From a virus: 31,722 bases of DNA. The notes under the pieces are model-generated. The model worked only from the letters and a program-made list of their open reading frames with translations. It did no database searches and was not told the origin of the DNA. Position 1 is the first letter of the stretch. Each line of letters opens with the position of its first letter. The translations under genes were made by a program, and so were the position numbers. The stretch is from the UHGV virus genome UHGV-0068509; one strand, given 5' to 3'. Positions 9,741-21,757 of this stretch are shown here, in pieces.

Positions 9741-11000
9741 TTACTGGTTAGCCAGTACCAGGCCGGTAAACTCTGGAACCAATACACTTGCGCCAGCCAG
9801 CGTGGTGAATCGCGTCCACGTCTTACCTGCTTTGGCATCGAACTGGTAAGCCATGATGATGGTCGCCCCCTGCTCGGTAGTTGCCGTCATAACCTGCGGG
9901 CCCTGCCCGGTCGGGAATGCCAGCTTGCCGTACATCAGCTCTACAGATCCCTCAGCAAAGAAGATGTTGGAAGCCGCAGCCTTCTTGTTGAGAATGGTGA
10001 TCGCCGCGTTATTCGCCGGATTGGCGGTAACGTTCTGGTAAGGAATAGACGGCGCATCAGCGTTGTTTGGTGGCAGAATTTTCGGGCTGATGGTAACGGT
10101 GGTGCCATTTACCGCCAGGACGCGGAATACCTGCGACTGGCCTGTATCCACCTTCTTGATCATGTGGACACTATTAACGCCTGCGATAGTGAATGCATCA
10201 CCAACAGCCAGCACGCCAGCAGTAGACACGGTGATGTCGCCCTGACGGTTATCAGTAGGTGCGCCGTTGGAGTCCATTGCGGTAACTTTATGCGCTACTG
10301 CGCCACCAAGAGTTACGGCGGTGGCAGAACCTGCCTTCATCGCGCCAGCATAATCAACACGGAAGCTGTCGAAGGATGCCACAGGTGGGATCTGAGCTTT
10401 CTCATACGCCGTCAGCGTTGCGCCAACTGCATATGCGCGAGAGCCAAGCTCTTTAGCCAGGTCTTTGTAGTTGAACGGGTTGTAGAACGCTTTGCGCTGC
10501 CCACCCTGCGGCACACCAATAGAGAGCATCATTGCGTCAATGCCTGCAGATGCGTTCCAGAGGTCTTCGCCGAGAGTCTTGCCGGTTGATGCCGAACCAA
10601 TGGTGACCATGTTGGTAGCGCGGGCGGCCACCTCATCGACGATCAGGTTATCAACCCACGCTGCCAGCTGACGACCCGCCGCTTTACCAGCTTGCTCCTT
10701 ATGCCATGGATCGCGCATTTCTTTTGCGTCCAGCTCGTAGATAACGTTTTCTGGCTCGCGGAAACGCGCAGGTACCTGACGCTGAACGAGTGAGTTTGCA
10801 GTTGCTGCGGTCAGATCTAGGCCGCTAACGGTTTTCAGATGGTAACCTTGAGGGCGATAAACTACGTCGCCTGCGCGTTGCATTTCAGTGTCGCCCGGGC
10901 GGAACTTGCTGCACTCACGGGATACTACGTTTGATGCCTCGAATCCATCAATGACGTTTTCAAATAGGATTTCAAGGTCTTTAGTTAACTGATTAGGCAT
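9741..11000 (-). CDS. Major capsid (coat) protein, P22/Sf6-type
   Basis: 419-aa ORF directly after the scaffold gene; N-terminus MPNQL; size and synteny; followed by a terminator as expected for a highly expressed coat gene. Confidence 0.8.
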   Translation of the reverse strand: MPNQLTKDLEILFENVIDGFEASNVVSRECSKFRPGDTEMQRAGDVVYRPQGYHLKTVSGLDLTAATANSLVQRQVPARFREPENVIYELDAKEMRDPWHKEQAGKAAGRQLAAWVDNLIVDEVAARATNMVTIGSASTGKTLGEDLWNASAGIDAMMLSIGVPQGGQRKAFYNPFNYKDLAKELGSRAYAVGATLTAYEKAQIPPVASFDSFRVDYAGAMKAGSATAVTLGGAVAHKVTAMDSNGAPTDNRQGDITVSTAGVLAVGDAFTIAGVNSVHMIKKVDTGQSQVFRVLAVNGTTVTISPKILPPNNADAPSIPYQNVTANPANNAAITILNKKAAASNIFFAEGSVELMYGKLAFPTGQGPQVMTATTEQGATIIMAYQFDAKAGKTWTRFTTLAGASVLVPEFTGLVLANQ

Positions 11001-16777: not shown

Positions 16778-17518
16778 TTATTTCGTAGGGAAAGATGTGA
16801 TCACATCAACGATGGGCTGGATTGAAAATCCAATACCAATTCCGGAGTTAGCATTCAGCGACATCATGTCCGAAACAATCTGTAGCGATCTACCAAACAT
16901 GTCCGCCATTTGCCCGAAATTAACACCCATGATCTCAACACTTCCATGCAGACTTGCTGAAGAAAGATATTGTCGCAGTTGGGCTATTTCTTGGCTGAAA
17001 GCATCAGCCTGATCGCCCATTATATATCTACGCTGGGTGACGATACCTACTAACTCTCCCGAATCTCGATCAATAATAGGTCCTCCTGAGTTCCCCCCAT
17101 TAACCATTCCATCAAGCGTAAATCGGCCATGCTCCATCGGTGCTGAAATAATTGCCTCACTTGTTAGTAACAGAGGTATCCCATGCGGGTATCCTGCAAA
17201 AATTACTTTTCTGCCCCTGGATGGAGCAAACCCAGCAGATGGTTGAAGGACTGTTCTTCCGCCAGGAAGGGGGGATTGCAATTGCATGATAGCAAAGTCG
17301 TTACTACCATCAACATGCAAAATTTTAGCGTCGATACTCTCATTTGCTTCAGTTTGAAGAATGACGTCATTGATTTGACACTCGGTTTGTAAGTCACAAC
17401 AGGTGGCCACAACATGCAAGTTAGTTACAACTAGGTTTTCTCGCATGAAACTGAACCCGCTACCACGAGACTTACCTGCAATGACCTGAAATGTTGCGTT
17501 GGCTAAGTTTTGATGCAT
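16778..17518 (-). CDS. Trypsin-like (S1/HtrA-type fold) serine protease, cytoplasmic, no PDZ domain
   Basis: 246-aa ORF with strong RBS GGAGGA; catalytic motifs in canonical order His (VVTNLHVV), Asp (DFAIMQL), Ser (GNSGGP); no N-terminal signal peptide; about 75-aa C-terminal tail ending GIGIGFSIQPIVDVI. Confidence 0.85.
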   Translation of the reverse strand: MHQNLANATFQVIAGKSRGSGFSFMRENLVVTNLHVVATCCDLQTECQINDVILQTEANESIDAKILHVDGSNDFAIMQLQSPLPGGRTVLQPSAGFAPSRGRKVIFAGYPHGIPLLLTSEAIISAPMEHGRFTLDGMVNGGNSGGPIIDRDSGELVGIVTQRRYIMGDQADAFSQEIAQLRQYLSSASLHGSVEIMGVNFGQMADMFGRSLQIVSDMMSLNANSGIGIGFSIQPIVDVITSFPTK

Positions 17519-18224: not shown

Positions 18225-18695
18225 TTAAATGATTTGCCAGTCTTCTGCTAGAACATCAGTCTGACTAGCCAGCCACGGTACTAATTTATCGTCCGCTGTC
18301 TTCATGCAAATGCATGGCAGCGTCACAAGGCCATTAACTCCGTCCAGGTCACACTCAAACCCCCAAGCATTCTGCTGGATAATGAACAGATACATCCCCT
18401 TACCATTCCAGCCAGCACGGGCAACTTTATTCCCCAACTTGAGCGCTTCAATGGCAAGGCCGAAACTTAGCCCTGATACCGGACGATAAGCCTTTTCGAA
18501 TACTTCTTTTGGACTCCAGCTAACGTAGCCATCAAAGCGATCGGTGTTAGGTTTTCCGCCATCAAGATATTCAACCAGATAGCCTTCATCCTCGCCGTTT
18601 TCTCCGGCAGGAAGCTGCCAGCCACGAAAATCGTTATATGCCTGTCTCGTCATCGGAAAGGCGTTAATCAGTTTTACGCCAATATGCTGGGTCAT
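18225..18695 (-). CDS. DUF2829-family protein (Tad2-like candidate Thoeris anti-defence sponge fold) with an extra N-terminal region
   Basis: C-terminal half AIEALKLGNKVARAGWNGKGMYLFI...MKTADDKLVPWLASQTDVLAEDWQII resembles the DUF2829 consensus as I recall it; start uncertain (ATG at 18695 used; an in-frame GTG at 18788 would give 187 aa). Confidence 0.55.
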   Translation of the reverse strand: MTQHIGVKLINAFPMTRQAYNDFRGWQLPAGENGEDEGYLVEYLDGGKPNTDRFDGYVSWSPKEVFEKAYRPVSGLSFGLAIEALKLGNKVARAGWNGKGMYLFIIQQNAWGFECDLDGVNGLVTLPCICMKTADDKLVPWLASQTDVLAEDWQII

Positions 18696-18775
18696 AAAAT
18701 TACCTATAGAGTTGGGAATAAAAAGCCCCGCATCGCGAGGCTCATTAAATGGACTTTGTGATTTGCAAAACGTGT

Positions 18776-19246
18776 TTATTTCAGGCACTGCTCTTTGATG
18801 TATTCCTGCAGATAGCCAACCTGCTTCGTCACTGTGACGATTCGCTCTCTGAGGGTGAAATAATCCCGTTCAGCGGAGTCAGTAAGTCGGGGGCCGGTAA
18901 CATCGCCCAGGCCGCCGGTGCTGGTCGTTCCGTTCGCGGGACAGTTTGCGTTGAGCTGCAGCCGCTTACGGCCAGCAATGACATCGCTATGCAGACGCTC
19001 AATGGTTTCTTTCGCATCAGCCAGTTCTCCGGTGTATTTGGCATCCAGTGCAGCGACATCACGCTGGCGGGTCTGCATGTCTTTAATGGTGGCGGTCGCC
19101 AGGAGGAGTTTCTCAGTGGCCTTATCGCGCTGGTCTCTGTAAGTGATGGCGTTGTCGCGGTAGTGGTTCACGAAGAAAGCCAGTGCGCCGATTAACGCCA
19201 GCACCAGCAACTGCAGCCAGTAACGCTTAACCAGTGCGCTAATCAT
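18776..19246 (-). CDS. Rz: Rz-like i-spanin
   Basis: N-terminal TMD ([26 protein letters not shown]), [20 protein letters not shown] and C-terminal ...[10 protein letters not shown]...EQC similar to lambda Rz; ATG overlaps the endolysin stop. Confidence 0.9.
18829..19017 (-). CDS. Rz1: Rz1-like o-spanin (lipoprotein) embedded in the +1 frame of Rz
   Basis: [20 protein letters not shown] lipobox signal followed by a Pro-rich mature region; nested in Rz. Confidence 0.75.
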
Positions 19247-19692
19247 GACAGGAACAGAGCTCGCTCTGCCTTGCGGCGATTCGTGAGCCCCGGCATCACC
19301 TTTCCGCCTGATTTATTCCAGCGCAGAAATTCATCTGCCGCGCCTTTTATATCGCCAGCATTCAGCTTTTTCAGCAGTGTAGATGTGGAAAGAGCACGCG
19401 ACCCAACGTTGTAAGCGAACGACACCAGTGCGTCGAACTGGCCTTGTGTCAGCTTCACCCTGACAACTTTCAGCACGTCATTCTCATAACCAACAAGCCC
19501 TGTTTTCAGAAGCCTGTCAGCGGTTTGCTGGTCGATAGTCATACCGCGCTTTACTGGCTTTCCGTCAACCGGATGGGTCCAGCCATAGCCGATGGTCCAC
19601 GGCGCATCTCCCGTTCCGGGGTCTGGGTAAGCAGTCAGCCGACAACCTTCAAATTTTTTTATCAGAGCAATTCCGTCAGGACTGGTTTGCAT
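19243..19692 (-). CDS. Endolysin, phage lysozyme (GH24, T4/P22 gp19-like)
   Basis: Start at [16 protein letters not shown] with RBS GGGAG; motifs [18 protein letters not shown]...TIGYGWT and C-terminal [11 protein letters not shown]. Confidence 0.9.
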
Positions 19693-19999
19693 CGTCAACT
19701 CCCGCCTTTTTTGCTGCAAGTTTTTTAATAAGATTGCCGATCGAATCGGTGCCGATGTATCCAATAAAGACGCTGGCTATGTAGGCGAGGTTGCTGCTCA
19801 GGCCGATAAAGTCCAGAAGGTCACGAACGAACCAGGCAATCATCGCGCACATCAGCGCATCAATTAGCGTTTTTGTTACCGCGCCGCCGTTATAGCGACC
19901 ACGCAGATACGCCATGATAAAAGCCAGCATTGCACCAATACCCTGCTCCTTGGCGGCAAGTAGCGCAGCGATGAAATCTTGTTTGTATGGCATTTTCAT
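19676..19999 (-). CDS. Class I holin, lambda S-like, with dual-start motif
   Basis: Start [39 protein letters not shown] strongly resembles lambda S including the Met-Lys-Met dual start; RBS GGAGGTGA. Confidence 0.85.
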
Positions 20000-20107
20000 A
20001 GGCCTCACCTCCGATTTTTCGGATGGCGCTGTGTGTGTATGAAAAGGATCAGGCTTCACTGGCTGGATTTTCAACAAAGCACGTAGTGATTGATTCCCGT
20101 GAGCCTG

Positions 20108-20132
20108 AAATAAAAAACCCGCTCAAGGCGGG
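20108..20132 (-). terminator. tR'-like intrinsic terminator between the tRNA genes and the holin
   Basis: Minus-strand hairpin CCCGC-CTTGA-GCGGG followed by TTTTTTATTT. Confidence 0.6.
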
Positions 20133-20188
20133 AATGTTAGGGTGTGGCAATGTCAGCTCTGCGGCTGAAGATACCCTGGCTGGGTTTT

Positions 20189-20264
20189 TGGTGCCGGTTA
20201 ACGGATTTGAACCGCTACCTATTCACTTACAAGGCGACCGCTCTACCATTGGAGCTAAACCAGC
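20189..20264 (-). tRNA. tRNA-Thr (anticodon UGU), 76 nt with encoded CCA
   Basis: Hand-folded cloverleaf: 7-bp acceptor stem (one G-U), 4-bp D stem with GG in loop, anticodon loop CT-TGT-AA, T loop TTCAAAT, discriminator A, CCA. Confidence 0.7.
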
Positions 20265-20269
20265 ATGTT

Positions 20270-20344
20270 TGGCGGGACAGCGTGGACTCGAACCACGATA
20301 AGAAGGTTAACAGCCTTCCGTAATGACCTTTATACGACTGACCC
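20270..20344 (-). tRNA. tRNA-Asn (anticodon GUU), 75 nt with encoded CCA
   Basis: Hand-folded: perfect 5-bp anticodon stem, loop CT-GTT-AA, perfect T arm CGTGG-TTCGAGT-CCACG, acceptor stem with one mismatch, 4-nt variable loop, CCA. Confidence 0.6.
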
Positions 20345-20407
20345 AAATAAAAAAAGCCACCGTTGCAACTTAAGAGTCACTAACGGCAGCTTACCCTCTA
20401 ATTATGG

Positions 20408-20926
20408 CTAAATGGCTAATTGCATGTCAAGGTTTTTAACAGCAACATGCTTAACTTTCTCAACACGTTTACGCATTTTGAAAGCATTTTGCATTGGTTG
20501 GTACAAAACAAATAATGACGCTTTCAGGATGTCGTCAATTTCATTTCTACAGGTTGCCAGTGAAGGTTTTCTCCATCCCTCGCCACCACGTCCACACATC
20601 TTGCGTGGCTTTGCAGTCGCGTGATAGTAGGATGCAATTGCTCGCTTAGATGAACCATGAGCGTAGTAGCTGAGGAGGATGCCAAAGGCTTTCTTGTCAA
20701 TGTACATGACGGAATCGACGACCTGAGAAATCAACATTCCATCGTCATCATTACACATTGGCCTTGTAATAACTCTTCCCGGCTCTACGCTCTCCATGAA
20801 CTTCGCTATTACGCTGCTCATGCGCTTTTCCAGACGACCTGAATAAACCCATGCGCCCCATAGTTCAAGCCATCCATTCAGCCAATCGTGCTGCTCTTTG
20901 GTGAGGTTTAGTTCTCTTATGCTCAT
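20408..20926 (-). CDS. Q: Late-gene antiterminator Q family protein
   Basis: 172-aa ORF with LELWGAWVYSG and RPMCNDDDGMLI motifs typical of Q-family antiterminators; last gene before the tRNA/lysis region. Confidence 0.8.
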   Translation of the reverse strand: MSIRELNLTKEQHDWLNGWLELWGAWVYSGRLEKRMSSVIAKFMESVEPGRVITRPMCNDDDGMLISQVVDSVMYIDKKAFGILLSYYAHGSSKRAIASYYHATAKPRKMCGRGGEGWRKPSLATCRNEIDDILKASLFVLYQPMQNAFKMRKRVEKVKHVAVKNLDMQLAI

Positions 20927-21111
20927 CGTCTTCCCCTCTTGCCCTGTTTGACCATCAGGACGCCGTTAACTATTACGTGACGCTCGCCTTTGCTGTCTCG
21001 GTTGTACTTGAGCACTGTTCCTCTTGCGCAGGAAAGCATCCTCGCCACTTCGGTCTGATTGCCTCGTGTCTGGATAAGAAGCTCTGGTATCGTTTGAATT
21101 GTGGCGTTCAT
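20923..21111 (-). CDS. ninH: NinH-like protein
   Basis: 62-aa ORF; TIPELLIQTRGNQTEVARMLSCARGTVLKYNRD...VIVNGVLMV closely resembles lambda NinH. Confidence 0.85.
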   Translation of the reverse strand: MNATIQTIPELLIQTRGNQTEVARMLSCARGTVLKYNRDSKGERHVIVNGVLMVKQGKRGRR

Positions 21112-21470
21112 ACGTTCTCCAGTTCGGTGATTTTTATTCCAAGCCGTCCGCCTGGTACTTTCACGCCACGAATTACGCGAATGTCATCGAATTGCTCGTC
21201 GTCTTCCGCAAATCCGGCGTGGATAAGGGAGTCGAGTAAACCTTTCAGGATGTTGTCGAGGTCGCGGCGGCGGGAGTCTGGAACGTCTGCGATGACTTTG
21301 ATGCGGAGTCGTGATTTGGTGAAAATGTCTAACTTAAGTTGGCGGATGATTTGCTGAACGTCTTTTCGGTATTTCTGGCCTTTATCGCTGATGTAGTATT
21401 GGCTTCCCCGTCTTCGCCAGTAGGTATTCACCGACGGCGGGTATGGAAGCACAAACTGATATTCGTTCAT
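21108..21470 (-). CDS. rusA: RusA-family Holliday junction resolvase
   Basis: 120-aa ORF; LPYPPSVNTYWRRRG...DVPDSRRRDLDNILKGLLDSL...GGRLGIKITE matches RusA motifs. Confidence 0.9.
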   Translation of the reverse strand: MNEYQFVLPYPPSVNTYWRRRGSQYYISDKGQKYRKDVQQIIRQLKLDIFTKSRLRIKVIADVPDSRRRDLDNILKGLLDSLIHAGFAEDDEQFDDIRVIRGVKVPGGRLGIKITELENV

Positions 21471-21757
21471 GACTTAATCTTCCCCTCCTTCAGCAGTATC
21501 GCCTGCGTCCTGATCACGCCTTCGAGGTGGTAAAGTCTGGCGTCTTTGTTGTCGAGAATCATTGTGCGTCGGTCGATTTCATCGTGACACGCGCTACAAG
21601 CCCATGCGCCGATCAGGTCGCCAGGCTTCATTCCCGTTCCGCAAATTCCAGCCATCCGGTAATGTGCCAGAACTGTAGTTTCAGGATTACCATTGCATAC
21701 GCCGTAAATACGTACCTGGCATTCTCTGCCGCGTGCTTCTTTGCGTAGATTAGCCAT
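21467..21757 (-). CDS. ybcO: YbcO-like protein (DUF1364, putative nuclease)
   Basis: 96-aa ORF; MANLRKEARGRECQVRIYGVCNGNPETTVLAHYR...ACSACHDEIDRR resembles DLP12 prophage YbcO. Confidence 0.8.
   Translation of the reverse strand: MANLRKEARGRECQVRIYGVCNGNPETTVLAHYRMAGICGTGMKPGDLIGAWACSACHDEIDRRTMILDNKDARLYHLEGVIRTQAILLKEGKIKS

What the first reader, a model, noticed from the sequence alone, without database searches (positions are those of the whole stretch)
20189..20344. Two phage-encoded tRNA genes (Thr-UGU, Asn-GUU) in the late leader between Q and the holin
Hand-folding gives two adjacent cloverleafs with encoded CCA ends on the minus strand, 5 nt apart, immediately upstream of a tR'-like terminator and the holin gene. 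This is the position where some lambdoid phages carry tRNA genes downstream of Q. Both have minor stem imperfections, so they could be functional phage tRNAs, tRNA-derived processing signals, or remnants of integration at a tRNA locus.
Basis: seen in the sequence. Interest (0 to 1): 0.4.

Follow-up and report, generated by a model that had tools for sequence, protein, structure and literature searches.

The report
Known lambdoid phage tRNA gene pair
Two genuine tRNA genes (Asn-GUU and Thr-UGU) sit at the start of the late operon of a P22-like E. coli prophage. The cassette is already annotated in phage 21, Sf6, BTP1 and hundreds of genomes, and the phage-21 copy of the Thr tRNA was shown in 2025 to stand in for a host tRNA that the P2 Old defence nuclease destroys.

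Summary
ARAGORN and Rfam both call tRNA-Thr(UGU) at 20189-20264 and tRNA-Asn(GUU) at 20270-20344 on the minus strand. They lie 5 nt apart and both have an encoded CCA.

One detail is wrong. The phage-21-type tR' terminator lies upstream of the tRNAs and ends 1 nt before tRNA-Asn. The hairpin downstream of tRNA-Thr is a second terminator.

The cassette is already known:
- It is 96.8% identical to the phage 21, Sf6, SfI and BTP1 cassettes.
- tRNA-Asn matches in 368 of 5426 complete E. coli genomes.
- RefSeq annotates both genes in the source genome.

The "stem imperfection" in tRNA-Thr (G27.A43, with U28-A42) is the feature that Govande et al. 2025 link to resistance of phage-21 tRNA-Thr to the P2 Old Toprim nuclease. 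[quoted passage not shown]

Codon supplementation gets only modest support. ACA is 1.8-fold enriched in late genes, but the coat gene has 1 ACA among 34 Thr codons.

Best reading: Q-dependent counter-defence tRNAs. The only new element is a rare tRNA-Thr allele with U40 instead of C40, which removes the cytosine at the second Old/AriB cut site.

Verdict: ordinary, already known, low interest.

The parts
20408..20926 (-). Q-type late antiterminator gene (172 aa)
   Evidence: PHROG phrog_943 'anti-termination protein Q-like', E = 1.3e-92. It is 97-98% identical in DNA to Sf6 gene 59 and BTP1 q.
20401..20430 (-). Late promoter PR' (TTGACA, 18-nt spacer, CATAAT)
   Evidence: It is the only sigma-70-like site on this strand in 19500-21500, matching 11 of 12 positions. 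The homologous stretch is annotated as PR' in Sf6. The exact 30-mer occurs in at least 119 IMG/VR contigs.
20345..20392 (-). Late leader hairpin plus U7AU3 tract, equivalent to phage-21-type tR' (the qut region overlaps its 5' part)
   Evidence: The RNA fold gives -20.2 kcal/mol, z = -4.64, with 0 of 200 shuffles as stable. The sequence is identical to the phage 21 leader. There the terminated 'aRNA' is annotated as ending 1 nt before tRNA-Asn. Sf6 annotates the same stretch as tR' and qut.
20270..20344 (-). tRNA-Asn(GUU), 75 nt, CCA encoded, discriminator G73
   Evidence: Called by ARAGORN and by RF00005 at 55.3 bits. It is identical to the phage 21 and Sf6 genes. An exact or near match occurs in 368 of 5426 E. 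coli genomes. Three pairs show compensatory changes relative to phage Mulock.
20265..20269 (-). 5-nt spacer AACAU between the two tRNAs
   Evidence: Read from the sequence. Relatives have AACAT, AATAT or GACAT.
20189..20264 (-). tRNA-Thr(UGU), 76 nt, CCA encoded, discriminator A73. Rare allele with G26, U40, A45, A59 and G70.
   Evidence: Called by ARAGORN and by RF00005 at 55.4 bits. It differs from the phage 21 allele at 5 positions, all unpaired or pair-preserving. The anticodon stem is GUCGC/GUGAA, with G27.A43 unpaired and U28-A42.
20108..20132 (-). Second intrinsic-terminator-like hairpin (CCCGC-CUUGA-GCGGG) plus T-run, between tRNA-Thr and the holin
   Evidence: Found by the terminator scan. 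A homologous terminator is annotated after the tRNAs in phage L.
19676..19999 (-). Holin/antiholin with a lambda-S-type dual start (MKM); first protein gene of the late operon
   Evidence: PHROG phrog_126 holin/anti-holin, E = 2e-39. RefSeq calls it 'phage holin, lambda family'. The ATG-AAA-ATG start is read from the sequence.

Best explanation
These are two functional phage tRNA genes that form the first transcribed cargo of the late operon.

PR' fires constitutively, and without Q most transcripts stop at tR', 1 nt before tRNA-Asn. Q-modified RNA polymerase reads through tR', both tRNAs and the second terminator into the holin and the structural genes. This transcription scheme is inferred from the architecture and from phage 21 and lambda biology. 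RNase P and 3' exonucleases would then release mature tRNAs that already carry CCA; this step is also inferred.

Their main job is most likely counter-defence. They supply nuclease-resistant replacements for host tRNA-Thr(UGU), which comes from the single-copy gene thrU, and for tRNA-Asn(GUU). Both host tRNAs are cut in the anticodon stem by Toprim nucleases carried on P2-like prophages and P4-like satellites (P2 Old, PARIS AriB). Late proteins, with about 15 ACA codons per 1000, can then still be made.

This has been shown experimentally for the phage-21 orthologue of tRNA-Thr against P2 Old. It is inferred for this allele and for tRNA-Asn.
For: The genes are real and under structural selection.
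- Searches confirm both genes.
- In tRNA-Thr, 93.5% of cells pair, 13 pairs change on both sides, and 0 of 500 shuffles reach this.
- In tRNA-Asn there are 3 compensatory pairs relative to phage Mulock.

Identity elements are present (the element lists are from established knowledge).
- Thr: G1-C72, C2-G71, G35, U36.
- Asn: G34, U35, U36, G73.

Architecture.
- There is a single promoter and a strong tR' immediately upstream.

Expression of orthologues.
- The BTP1 lysogen RNA-seq paper sets its two tRNA genes aside when listing genes above TPM 100. It places the start of the lytic operon directly after them (PMC7067206).

Function (PMC12445682).
- P2 Old kills by cutting host tRNA-ThrU after C28 and C40.
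- Phage-21 tRNA-Thr protects Old+Gam+ cells and resists cleavage in vitro.
- Resistance needs an altered CNG motif plus a shortened anticodon stem.
- The window tRNA-Thr has both features: U28-A42 and unpaired G27.A43.
- The 27.43 pair is unpaired in all 12 temperate-phage alleles examined. It is paired in host thrU and in T5.
- Mulock keeps this anticodon arm unchanged while its acceptor stem covaries.

AriB (PMC12409363).
- AriB cuts host Lys(UUU), Thr(UGU) and Asn(GUU) at U36-A-A-U39-C40|N41.
- The host sites are UAAUCA and UAAUCC. The window tRNAs read UAAGUG and UAACCU, so they lack U39, as the T5 evader tRNAs do.

Context.
- A Tad2-like anti-Thoeris ORF lies just after the spanin genes.
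Against: - No experiment exists on this allele or on tRNA-Asn from this cassette.
- The cassette is one lineage inherited by descent. The match between its two anticodons and the nuclease targets therefore counts as a single event, not repeated convergence.
- Lacking U39 is not rare among tRNAs in general.
- Phage Mulock's tRNA-Asn regains the C28-G42 pair and so a CNG motif. Loss of CNG in Asn is therefore not conserved.
- There is no tRNA-Lys(UUU), which is indispensable against PARIS of strain B185. The pair cannot by itself defeat that system.
- The tRNAs sit behind tR', so they may arrive late relative to a nuclease triggered by early proteins. Q itself contains an ACA codon.
- About half of the relatives with the same promoter lack the tRNAs, so the cassette is dispensable.
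Confidence: 0.6

Rival explanations
1. Codon supplementation. The tRNAs raise the supply of decoders for ACA and AAC/AAU because the phage late genes use these codons more than the host does. This would speed late protein synthesis with no role for defence systems.
For: ACA is 15.4 per 1000 codons in late plus lysis genes against 8.5 per 1000 in a 33-gene K-12 sample, a ratio of 1.8. ACA makes up 0.27 of Thr codons against 0.16. AAC is enriched 1.7-fold. thrU is the only UGU-anticodon gene in K-12 (stated in PMC12445682). The phage L paper notes that 24 of 25 Asn codons in its coat gene are AAC and proposes supplementation.
Against: The most highly expressed late gene (coat, 9741-11000) has 1 ACA among 34 Thr codons. 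ACA and AAC are not the most enriched codons; AAG, TAC, AGG and GAC rank higher. E. coli has four tRNA-Asn genes, so Asn decoding is unlikely to be limiting. Supplementation does not explain why the unusual anticodon-stem features are conserved while other stems covary. The host sample is small (about 9400 codons from one region).
Confidence: 0.25
2. RNA-processing signals. The tRNA-shaped elements mainly recruit RNase P or RNase E. This would cut the leader with its terminator hairpin away from the lysis and structural mRNA and set that mRNA's 5' end and stability. Decoding would be secondary.
For: tRNA-Asn starts 1 nt after the leader, so RNase P cleavage would release a leader RNA about the size of the terminated transcript. 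In relatives the same slot can hold a very stable clamp hairpin, in some cases with a hammerhead-like core. These are other potential cleavage elements.
Against: A processing signal would not need a conserved anticodon, synthetase identity elements and an encoded CCA. The phage-21 tRNA-Thr rescue activity points to decoding of ACA: in the related tRNA-Thr6, changing the anticodon abolished rescue.
Confidence: 0.08
3. Decaying or pseudo-tRNAs, or remnants of integration at a tRNA locus, kept only by hitch-hiking with the Q module.
For: Mismatches occur in stems: U4.U69 and U13.U22 in Asn, G27.A43 in Thr. The single-sequence MFE fold of tRNA-Thr is not a cloverleaf. Decay is seen in some relatives. 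The second tRNA of phage L/ST64T is not called by ARAGORN. Asn/Gly deletion chimeras exist.
Against: Both genes score 55 bits, almost twice the Rfam threshold. Both are full length with CCA. tRNA-Asn is identical in 55 of the 60 cassettes recovered, 59 IMG/VR loci plus the window. All five differences from the phage-21 tRNA-Thr are at unpaired positions or preserve pairing. Compensatory changes are seen. The phage-21 tRNA-Thr is active in vivo. The locus lies in the late operon, not at an attachment site.
Confidence: 0.04

Closest known systems
Phage 21 / Sf6 / SfI / BTP1 late-leader cassette tRNA-Asn(GUU)-tRNA-Thr(UGU)
   Same: The order is the same: Q, PR', qut/tR', tRNA-Asn, 5-nt spacer, tRNA-Thr, lysis genes. 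The cassette is 96.8% identical, tRNA-Asn is identical, and the leader is identical from the transcription start region onward.
   Different: tRNA-Thr differs at 5 positions: G26, U40, A45, A59 and G70. The exact allele was found only in the source genome NZ_LR536431.1 among 5426 complete E. coli genomes, and in two IMG/VR contigs (L017, L087). No phage record carries it at full length. The holin and lysis module downstream is of another type, with the mosaic junction at the 3' end of tRNA-Thr.
Nuclease-resistant phage tRNA-Thr(UGU) that rescue P2 Old toxicity (tRNA-Thr6, tRNA-Thr21; Govande et al. 2025, PMC12445682)
   Same: It has the UGU anticodon, an altered CNG motif (U28-A42 instead of C28-G42) and an anticodon stem shortened by an unpaired 27.43.
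   Different: The window allele was not tested. It also has U40 in place of C40, the cytosine after which Old site 2 and AriB cut.
[quoted passage not shown]
   Same: Two of the three isoacceptors are the same. Both carry substitutions at positions 39-41 that remove the host UAAU(C) site.
   Different: Identity to the T5 tRNAs is only 62-66%. There is no Lys tRNA. The phage is temperate, the tRNAs lie in the late operon rather than an early tRNA cluster, and no PARIS test has been done.
Host E. coli thrU and asnT/U/V/W
   Same: Same anticodons, discriminator bases and synthetase identity elements.
   Different: Identity is 74% and 63%. The host genes carry the paired CNG motifs and the UAAUC site that make them nuclease substrates.
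tRNA genes downstream of Q in Stx phages (ileZ-argN-argO of 933W; from my own knowledge, not checked here)
   Same: Same kind of position: between Q/PR' and the first late genes of a lambdoid phage.
   Different: The isoacceptors differ (rare Ile and Arg codon readers) and the Q/PR' type differs. Those tRNAs are usually explained by codon supply for stx and late genes.

Membership tests
Bacterial-type elongator tRNA (Rfam RF00005) | Cloverleaf with conserved D and T loops, scoring above the curated threshold | tested here: met
   55.4 and 55.3 bits against a gathering score of 29, full-length model match. ARAGORN calls both.
Bacterial-type elongator tRNA (Rfam RF00005) | Stems maintained by compensatory change among relatives | tested here: met
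   Thr: 13 of 21 pairs change on both sides and 0 of 500 shuffles reach this (the alignment includes K-12 thrU and T5). Asn: 3 pairs, with 2 of 500 shuffles (only 6 sequences).
tRNA-Thr(UGU) chargeable by ThrRS | G1-C72, C2-G71, G35 and U36 (identity set from established literature, recalled), plus A73 and CCA | tested here: met
   All are present in the sequence. Aminoacylation itself is not testable here.
tRNA-Asn(GUU) chargeable by AsnRS | G34, U35, U36 and G73 (identity set from established literature, recalled) | tested here: met
   The anticodon loop is CUGUUAA and the discriminator is G before CCA. Aminoacylation is not testable here.
Phage-21-type late-leader tRNA cassette | Located directly after the 21-type leader/tR' and before the lysis genes, with high sequence identity to the phage 21 cassette | tested here: met
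   96.8% identity over 156 nt. tRNA-Asn starts 1 nt after the leader in both.
P2-Old-resistant phage tRNA-Thr (Govande 2025) | UGU anticodon | tested here: met
P2-Old-resistant phage tRNA-Thr (Govande 2025) | Altered paired CNG motif at positions 28-30 and 40-42 together with a shortened anticodon stem | tested here: met
   The window has U28-C29-G30 and U40-G41-A42 with G27.A43 unpaired. Host thrU has C28-U29-G30 and C40-A41-G42 with A27-U43 paired.
P2-Old-resistant phage tRNA-Thr (Govande 2025) | Resists cleavage by Old and rescues Old-induced death | not testable with these tools
   Shown for the phage-21 allele, which differs at 5 nt. Not shown for this allele.
PARIS/AriB-neutralising phage tRNA set (Belukhina 2025) | Variants of the AriB targets with a changed U36-A-A-U39-C40|N41 site | tested here: met
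   Thr reads UAAGUG and Asn reads UAACCU, against host UAAUCA and UAAUCC.
PARIS/AriB-neutralising phage tRNA set (Belukhina 2025) | Includes a resistant tRNA-Lys(UUU), which is required for rescue | tested here: not met
   Only two tRNAs occur in the window and neither is Lys. The Lys tRNA is stated as necessary. I therefore do not file the cassette as a PARIS-neutralising set.

The most novel reading that the evidence does not exclude
The window's rare tRNA-Thr allele may be a second-step escape variant in an ongoing arms race with Toprim anticodon-stem nucleases. The phage-21 allele is resistant at Old site 1 but is still cut at site 2. The window allele also replaces C40 with U40 (a G30.U40 wobble), removing the cytosine after which both Old (site 2) and AriB cut. 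Together with a co-transcribed tRNA-Asn that lacks both CNG motifs and U39, it could give temperate phages broader protection than has been shown so far. The independent thrU-like allele in five relatives (unpaired A27.C43 and C28.U42) would then be a convergent solution.
Probability: 0.25. Interest if true: 0.4.

Novelty: already known. Interest (0 to 1): 0.15.

Why it matters
As an annotation it adds nothing. The pair is already called by PGAP in the source genome and has been described for phage 21, Sf6, L and BTP1. Its value is as a worked example of how to read a feature. The mismatch that looks like tRNA decay is the conserved feature that a 2025 study links to escape from the P2 Old nuclease. 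If the rare U40 allele and the Asn partner also prove resistant, temperate phages would be carrying a compact, Q-timed two-tRNA counter-defence module. In that case its allelic variation would record selection by P2/P4-borne nucleases in natural E. coli populations.

Tried and rejected
1. Integration remnant or satellite attachment site. I read the helper-embedded satellite paper. It says nothing about phage tRNA genes as targets, and the genes here are intact, so I dropped this idea.
2. Single-sequence MFE folding. tRNA-Thr does not fold as a cloverleaf, and z-scores are weak (-1.6 and -1.7). This is uninformative for tRNAs, so I relied on covariance-model scores and covariation instead.
3. 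Megablast of the 76-nt tRNA-Thr against E. coli genomes. It cannot see the phage-21 allele, because no 28-nt exact word survives five spaced mismatches. The count of 93 genomes is not a prevalence figure. I used tRNA-Asn for prevalence.
4. The "chimeric tRNA-Asn" in four relatives first looked like an integration scar. It turned out to be a deletion hybrid between tRNA-Asn and a downstream tRNA-Gly(UCC), joined at the shared GGTTCGA.
5. Rfam searches for the clamp hairpin that replaces the tRNAs in relatives gave nothing at the gathering threshold or at E < 5. The only result was a sub-threshold type-I hammerhead hit in the long variant.
6. I looked for a RecBCD inhibitor (the Old trigger) in the window. 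The window ends inside the early-left region before any gam, abc or erf genes could be seen.
7. I looked for an isolated phage carrying the exact window allele. Bas106 and HF4s both carry the phage-21 allele.
8. I could not cross-tabulate presence of the cassette against old or ariAB across genomes with these tools.

Full report
**Observation.** ARAGORN finds exactly two tRNA genes in the window: tRNA-Thr(tgt) at 20189-20264 and tRNA-Asn(gtt) at 20270-20344, both on the minus strand. An independent covariance-model scan against all of Rfam matches RF00005 over the full model at both places. The scores are 55.4 and 55.3 bits against a gathering score of 29, with E about 1.6e-9. The sequence shows a 5-nt spacer (AACAU) and an encoded CCA after discriminator A73 in Thr and G73 in Asn.

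**Surroundings.**
- The window is a P22-like podovirus prophage. It has a tailspike with the P22-type N-terminal domain, a DNA-transfer protein, a coat protein (phrog_283), a portal and a terminase.
- It is 99.8% identical to E. coli chromosome NZ_LR536431.1 over the 801 bases tested. RefSeq already annotates both tRNAs there.
- Upstream lies a Q-type antiterminator gene (20408-20926; phrog_943, E = 1e-92).
- Next comes the only sigma-70-like promoter on this strand (20430-20401; TTGACA, 18-nt spacer, CATAAT; 11 of 12 matches).
- The transcribed leader folds into a strong hairpin followed by U7AU3 (20392-20345; -20.2 kcal/mol; z = -4.6).
- This leader is identical to that of phage 21. The GenBank record for phage 21 annotates the short terminated RNA as ending one base before tRNA-Asn.
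- The Sf6 record labels the same stretch as qut and tR'.
tR' precedes the tRNAs. The hairpin plus T-run at 20132-20108 is a second terminator, between tRNA-Thr and the lambda-S-type holin with its dual MKM start at 19999.

**What it is.**
- The 156-nt cassette is 96.8% identical to those of phage 21, Sf6, SfI, BTP1 and many Salmonella phages.
- tRNA-Asn is identical to the phage-21 gene. It matches in 368 of 5426 complete E. coli genomes.
- The literature already describes the pair. Phage 21 has "2 tRNA genes" (PMC9119081).
- The phage L paper discusses tRNAs at this position in L and Sf6. It states that it is unknown whether they are cut out of the late mRNA or have their own promoter (PMC8022706).
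- As a feature this is already known.

**Are they functional?**
- The synthetase identity elements that I recall from the literature are all present: G1-C72, C2-G71, G35 and U36 for ThrRS, and G34, U35, U36 and G73 for AsnRS.
- I aligned 12 temperate-phage tRNA-Thr variants with K-12 thrU and the T5 gene. In that alignment 93.5% of cells pair, 13 of 21 pairs change on both sides, and no shuffle out of 500 reaches this.
- Klebsiella phage Mulock carries Asn-Phe-Thr-Arg before its holin. It shows double compensatory changes in both acceptor stems.
- The five differences between the window tRNA-Thr and the phage-21 allele fall at unpaired positions (26, 45, 59) or keep pairing (G30.U40 for G30-C40; U3.G70 for U3-A70).
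- RNA-seq of BTP1 lysogens sets the two orthologous tRNA genes apart when listing the prophage genes with TPM above 100. It places the start of the lytic operon directly after them (PMC7067206).
- The phage tRNAs are only 74% and 63% identical to host thrU and asnT, so they are not recent host captures.

**Mechanism.** Three recent papers change how the "stem imperfections" should be read.

*P2 Old (Govande et al. 2025, PMC12445682).*
- P2 Old, the classic excluder of lambdoid phages, kills by cutting the anticodon stem of host tRNA-ThrU after C28 and C40 of a paired CNG motif.
- Phage tRNA-Thr(UGU) genes rescue the cells. The phage-21 tRNA-Thr was tested explicitly; it protects and it resists cleavage in vitro.
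- Resistance requires both an altered CNG motif and a shortened anticodon stem. The paper mentions C28U/G42A specifically.
- The window tRNA-Thr has U28-A42 and an unpaired G27.A43.
- In my alignment the 27.43 pair is unpaired in all 12 temperate-phage alleles, but paired in thrU and in T5.
- Mulock keeps this arm unchanged while its acceptor stem covaries. The mismatch therefore looks selected, not decayed.

*PARIS AriB (Belukhina et al. 2025, PMC12409363).*
- A U39 substitution abolishes cleavage of tRNA-Lys.
- I verified the host sites as UAAUCA (thrU) and UAAUCC (asnT). The window tRNAs read UAAGUG and UAACCU, and the T5 evader tRNAs read UAAGCA, UAAGUU and UAAACC.

*HepS (PMC13043305).* HepS of Gifsy-1 also cuts Thr tRNAs, including Thr(UGU) as a secondary target.

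The best-supported reading is that the cassette supplies nuclease-resistant decoders for ACA and AAY when Toprim nucleases from P2-like prophages or P4-like satellites destroy the host versions. Q-dependent read-through of tR' would deliver them together with the late genes. A Tad2-like anti-Thoeris ORF sits just after the spanin genes (18225-18788; PF11195, 93 bits). That fits counter-defence cargo flanking the lysis module.

**Limits of that reading.**
- Only the phage-21 tRNA-Thr has been tested, and only against Old.
- The cassette is one lineage, so the match of its anticodons to the nuclease targets is one event.
- Absence of U39 is not unusual in tRNAs.
- Mulock's tRNA-Asn has C28-G42 again.
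- No tRNA-Lys is present, and that tRNA is indispensable against PARIS of strain B185. The pair therefore fits Old-type nucleases better than PARIS.
- The tRNAs sit behind tR', so timing relative to an early-triggered nuclease is an open question.
- About half of the 120 IMG/VR loci with the identical promoter lack the tRNAs.

**Rival: codon supply.**
- ACA is 15.4 per 1000 codons in late and lysis genes against 8.5 per 1000 in 33 K-12 genes. AAC is enriched 1.7-fold.
- However, the coat gene has 1 ACA among 34 Thr codons, and other codons are more enriched.
- E. coli has four tRNA-Asn genes.
- Supplementation may contribute, but it does not explain the conserved anticodon-stem peculiarity.
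- Pure processing signals or pseudo-tRNAs are unlikely for the reasons given above.

**What is new, if anything.**
- The exact window tRNA-Thr allele (G26, U40, A45, A59, G70) occurs in only one of 5426 complete E. coli genomes, which is the source genome.
- It also occurs in two IMG/VR contigs, and in no phage record at full length.
- U40 removes the cytosine that precedes Old site 2 and the AriB cut. The phage-21 allele was reported as resistant mainly at site 1.
- That is a testable prediction, not a finding.

**Verdict.** The feature is already known and annotated, and its likely function was published in 2025 for the orthologue. Interest is low.

Noticed in passing
window 18225-18788 (-): The ORF (187 aa) immediately after the Rz/Rz1 spanin genes carries a Tad2-like (Thoeris anti-defence 2) domain: PF11195, 93 bits. 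Its homologue in phage Louie is annotated as 'anti-CRISPR protein'. It is likely a counter-defence gene at the end of the lysis module.
   Followed up: partly
window 16778-17518 (-): A 246-aa ORF with a trypsin-like peptidase domain (PF13365, 74 bits) lies in the 2-kb gap between the lysis genes and the terminase genes. It looks like accessory ('moron') cargo of unknown role. The neighbouring 59-aa ORF at 17631-17810 matches no family.
   Followed up: no
L006 about 565-641 and 36 other IMG/VR loci (e.g. L003, L004, L015, L077); not in the window: In relatives with the same PR'/tR' but no tRNAs, the slot is filled by a 68-81-nt hairpin. It has a conserved clamp stem of about 19 bp (CACAAC-A-GGUAAGAGCAUUG...CAGUGCUCUUAUC-GUUGUG) and at least five unrelated apical inserts. 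Folds give -29 to -35 kcal/mol with z from -3.5 to -5.9. No Rfam family matches. Its function is unexplained; an RNase III site or a carrier for small ribozymes are possibilities.
   Followed up: partly
L032 10476-10522 (+), also L056: The 209-nt version of that clamp element contains a type-I hammerhead-like core (CUGACGAG...CGAAAC...GUC). It scores 24.7 bits on RF00163, below the gathering score of 34, with E = 8e-4 in a 401-nt search.
   Followed up: partly
L014 1285-1360 (-), L041 626-701 (-), L042 2495-2570 (-), L091 775-850 (-), L097 6188-6263 (+): Five relatives carry an Asn / Thr-variant / Gly(UCC) cassette. The variant tRNA-Thr(UGU) joins the phage 5' 25 nt to a host-thrU-like remainder. 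Its anticodon stem is ACUGA/UCAUC, leaving A27.C43 and C28.U42 unpaired, so only 3 bp remain. ARAGORN does not call it. It is either decaying or an independent, more extreme stem-shortened allele.
   Followed up: partly
L020, L023, L101, L111 (about 86-170 nt downstream of PR'): A chimeric gene joins the 5' part of tRNA-Asn to the 3' end of tRNA-Gly(UCC) at the shared GGTTCGA of the T arm. It is apparently a deletion by recombination between neighbouring tRNA genes. ARAGORN does not call it, and it scores 32.6 bits in L020.
   Followed up: partly
L002 1202-1273 (-) (phage L, MW013502; the same in ST64T): The gene annotated 'tRNA-Leu(TAA)' in place of tRNA-Thr is a diverged derivative of the Thr gene. 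It keeps the same acceptor stem, has a rewritten anticodon arm and has 4 nt fewer in the variable region. ARAGORN does not call it. A class-I-sized Leu tRNA with a Thr acceptor stem is unlikely to be a normal Leu tRNA.
   Followed up: partly
window about 20131-20189: There are mosaic junctions on both sides of the cassette. Similarity to Sf6-type phages stops at the 3' end of tRNA-Thr (about 20186-20189). Similarity to phage Louie's lysis module starts at the second terminator (about 20131). On the left, alternative cargos begin 1-2 nt after the tR' U-run. The tRNA pair therefore behaves as a discrete exchangeable module.
   Followed up: partly
L011, L051, L073, L117, L118 (tRNAs at +785 from PR'): Some relatives have a different leader and terminator after the same promoter, plus an extra ORF. 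They carry the same Asn-Thr pair about 700 nt further downstream.
   Followed up: no
L126 901-1220 (Klebsiella phage Mulock, MN098327): This is an expanded four-tRNA version of the cassette (Asn-GUU, Phe-GAA, Thr-UGU, Arg-UCU) in the same position before the holin.
   Followed up: partly
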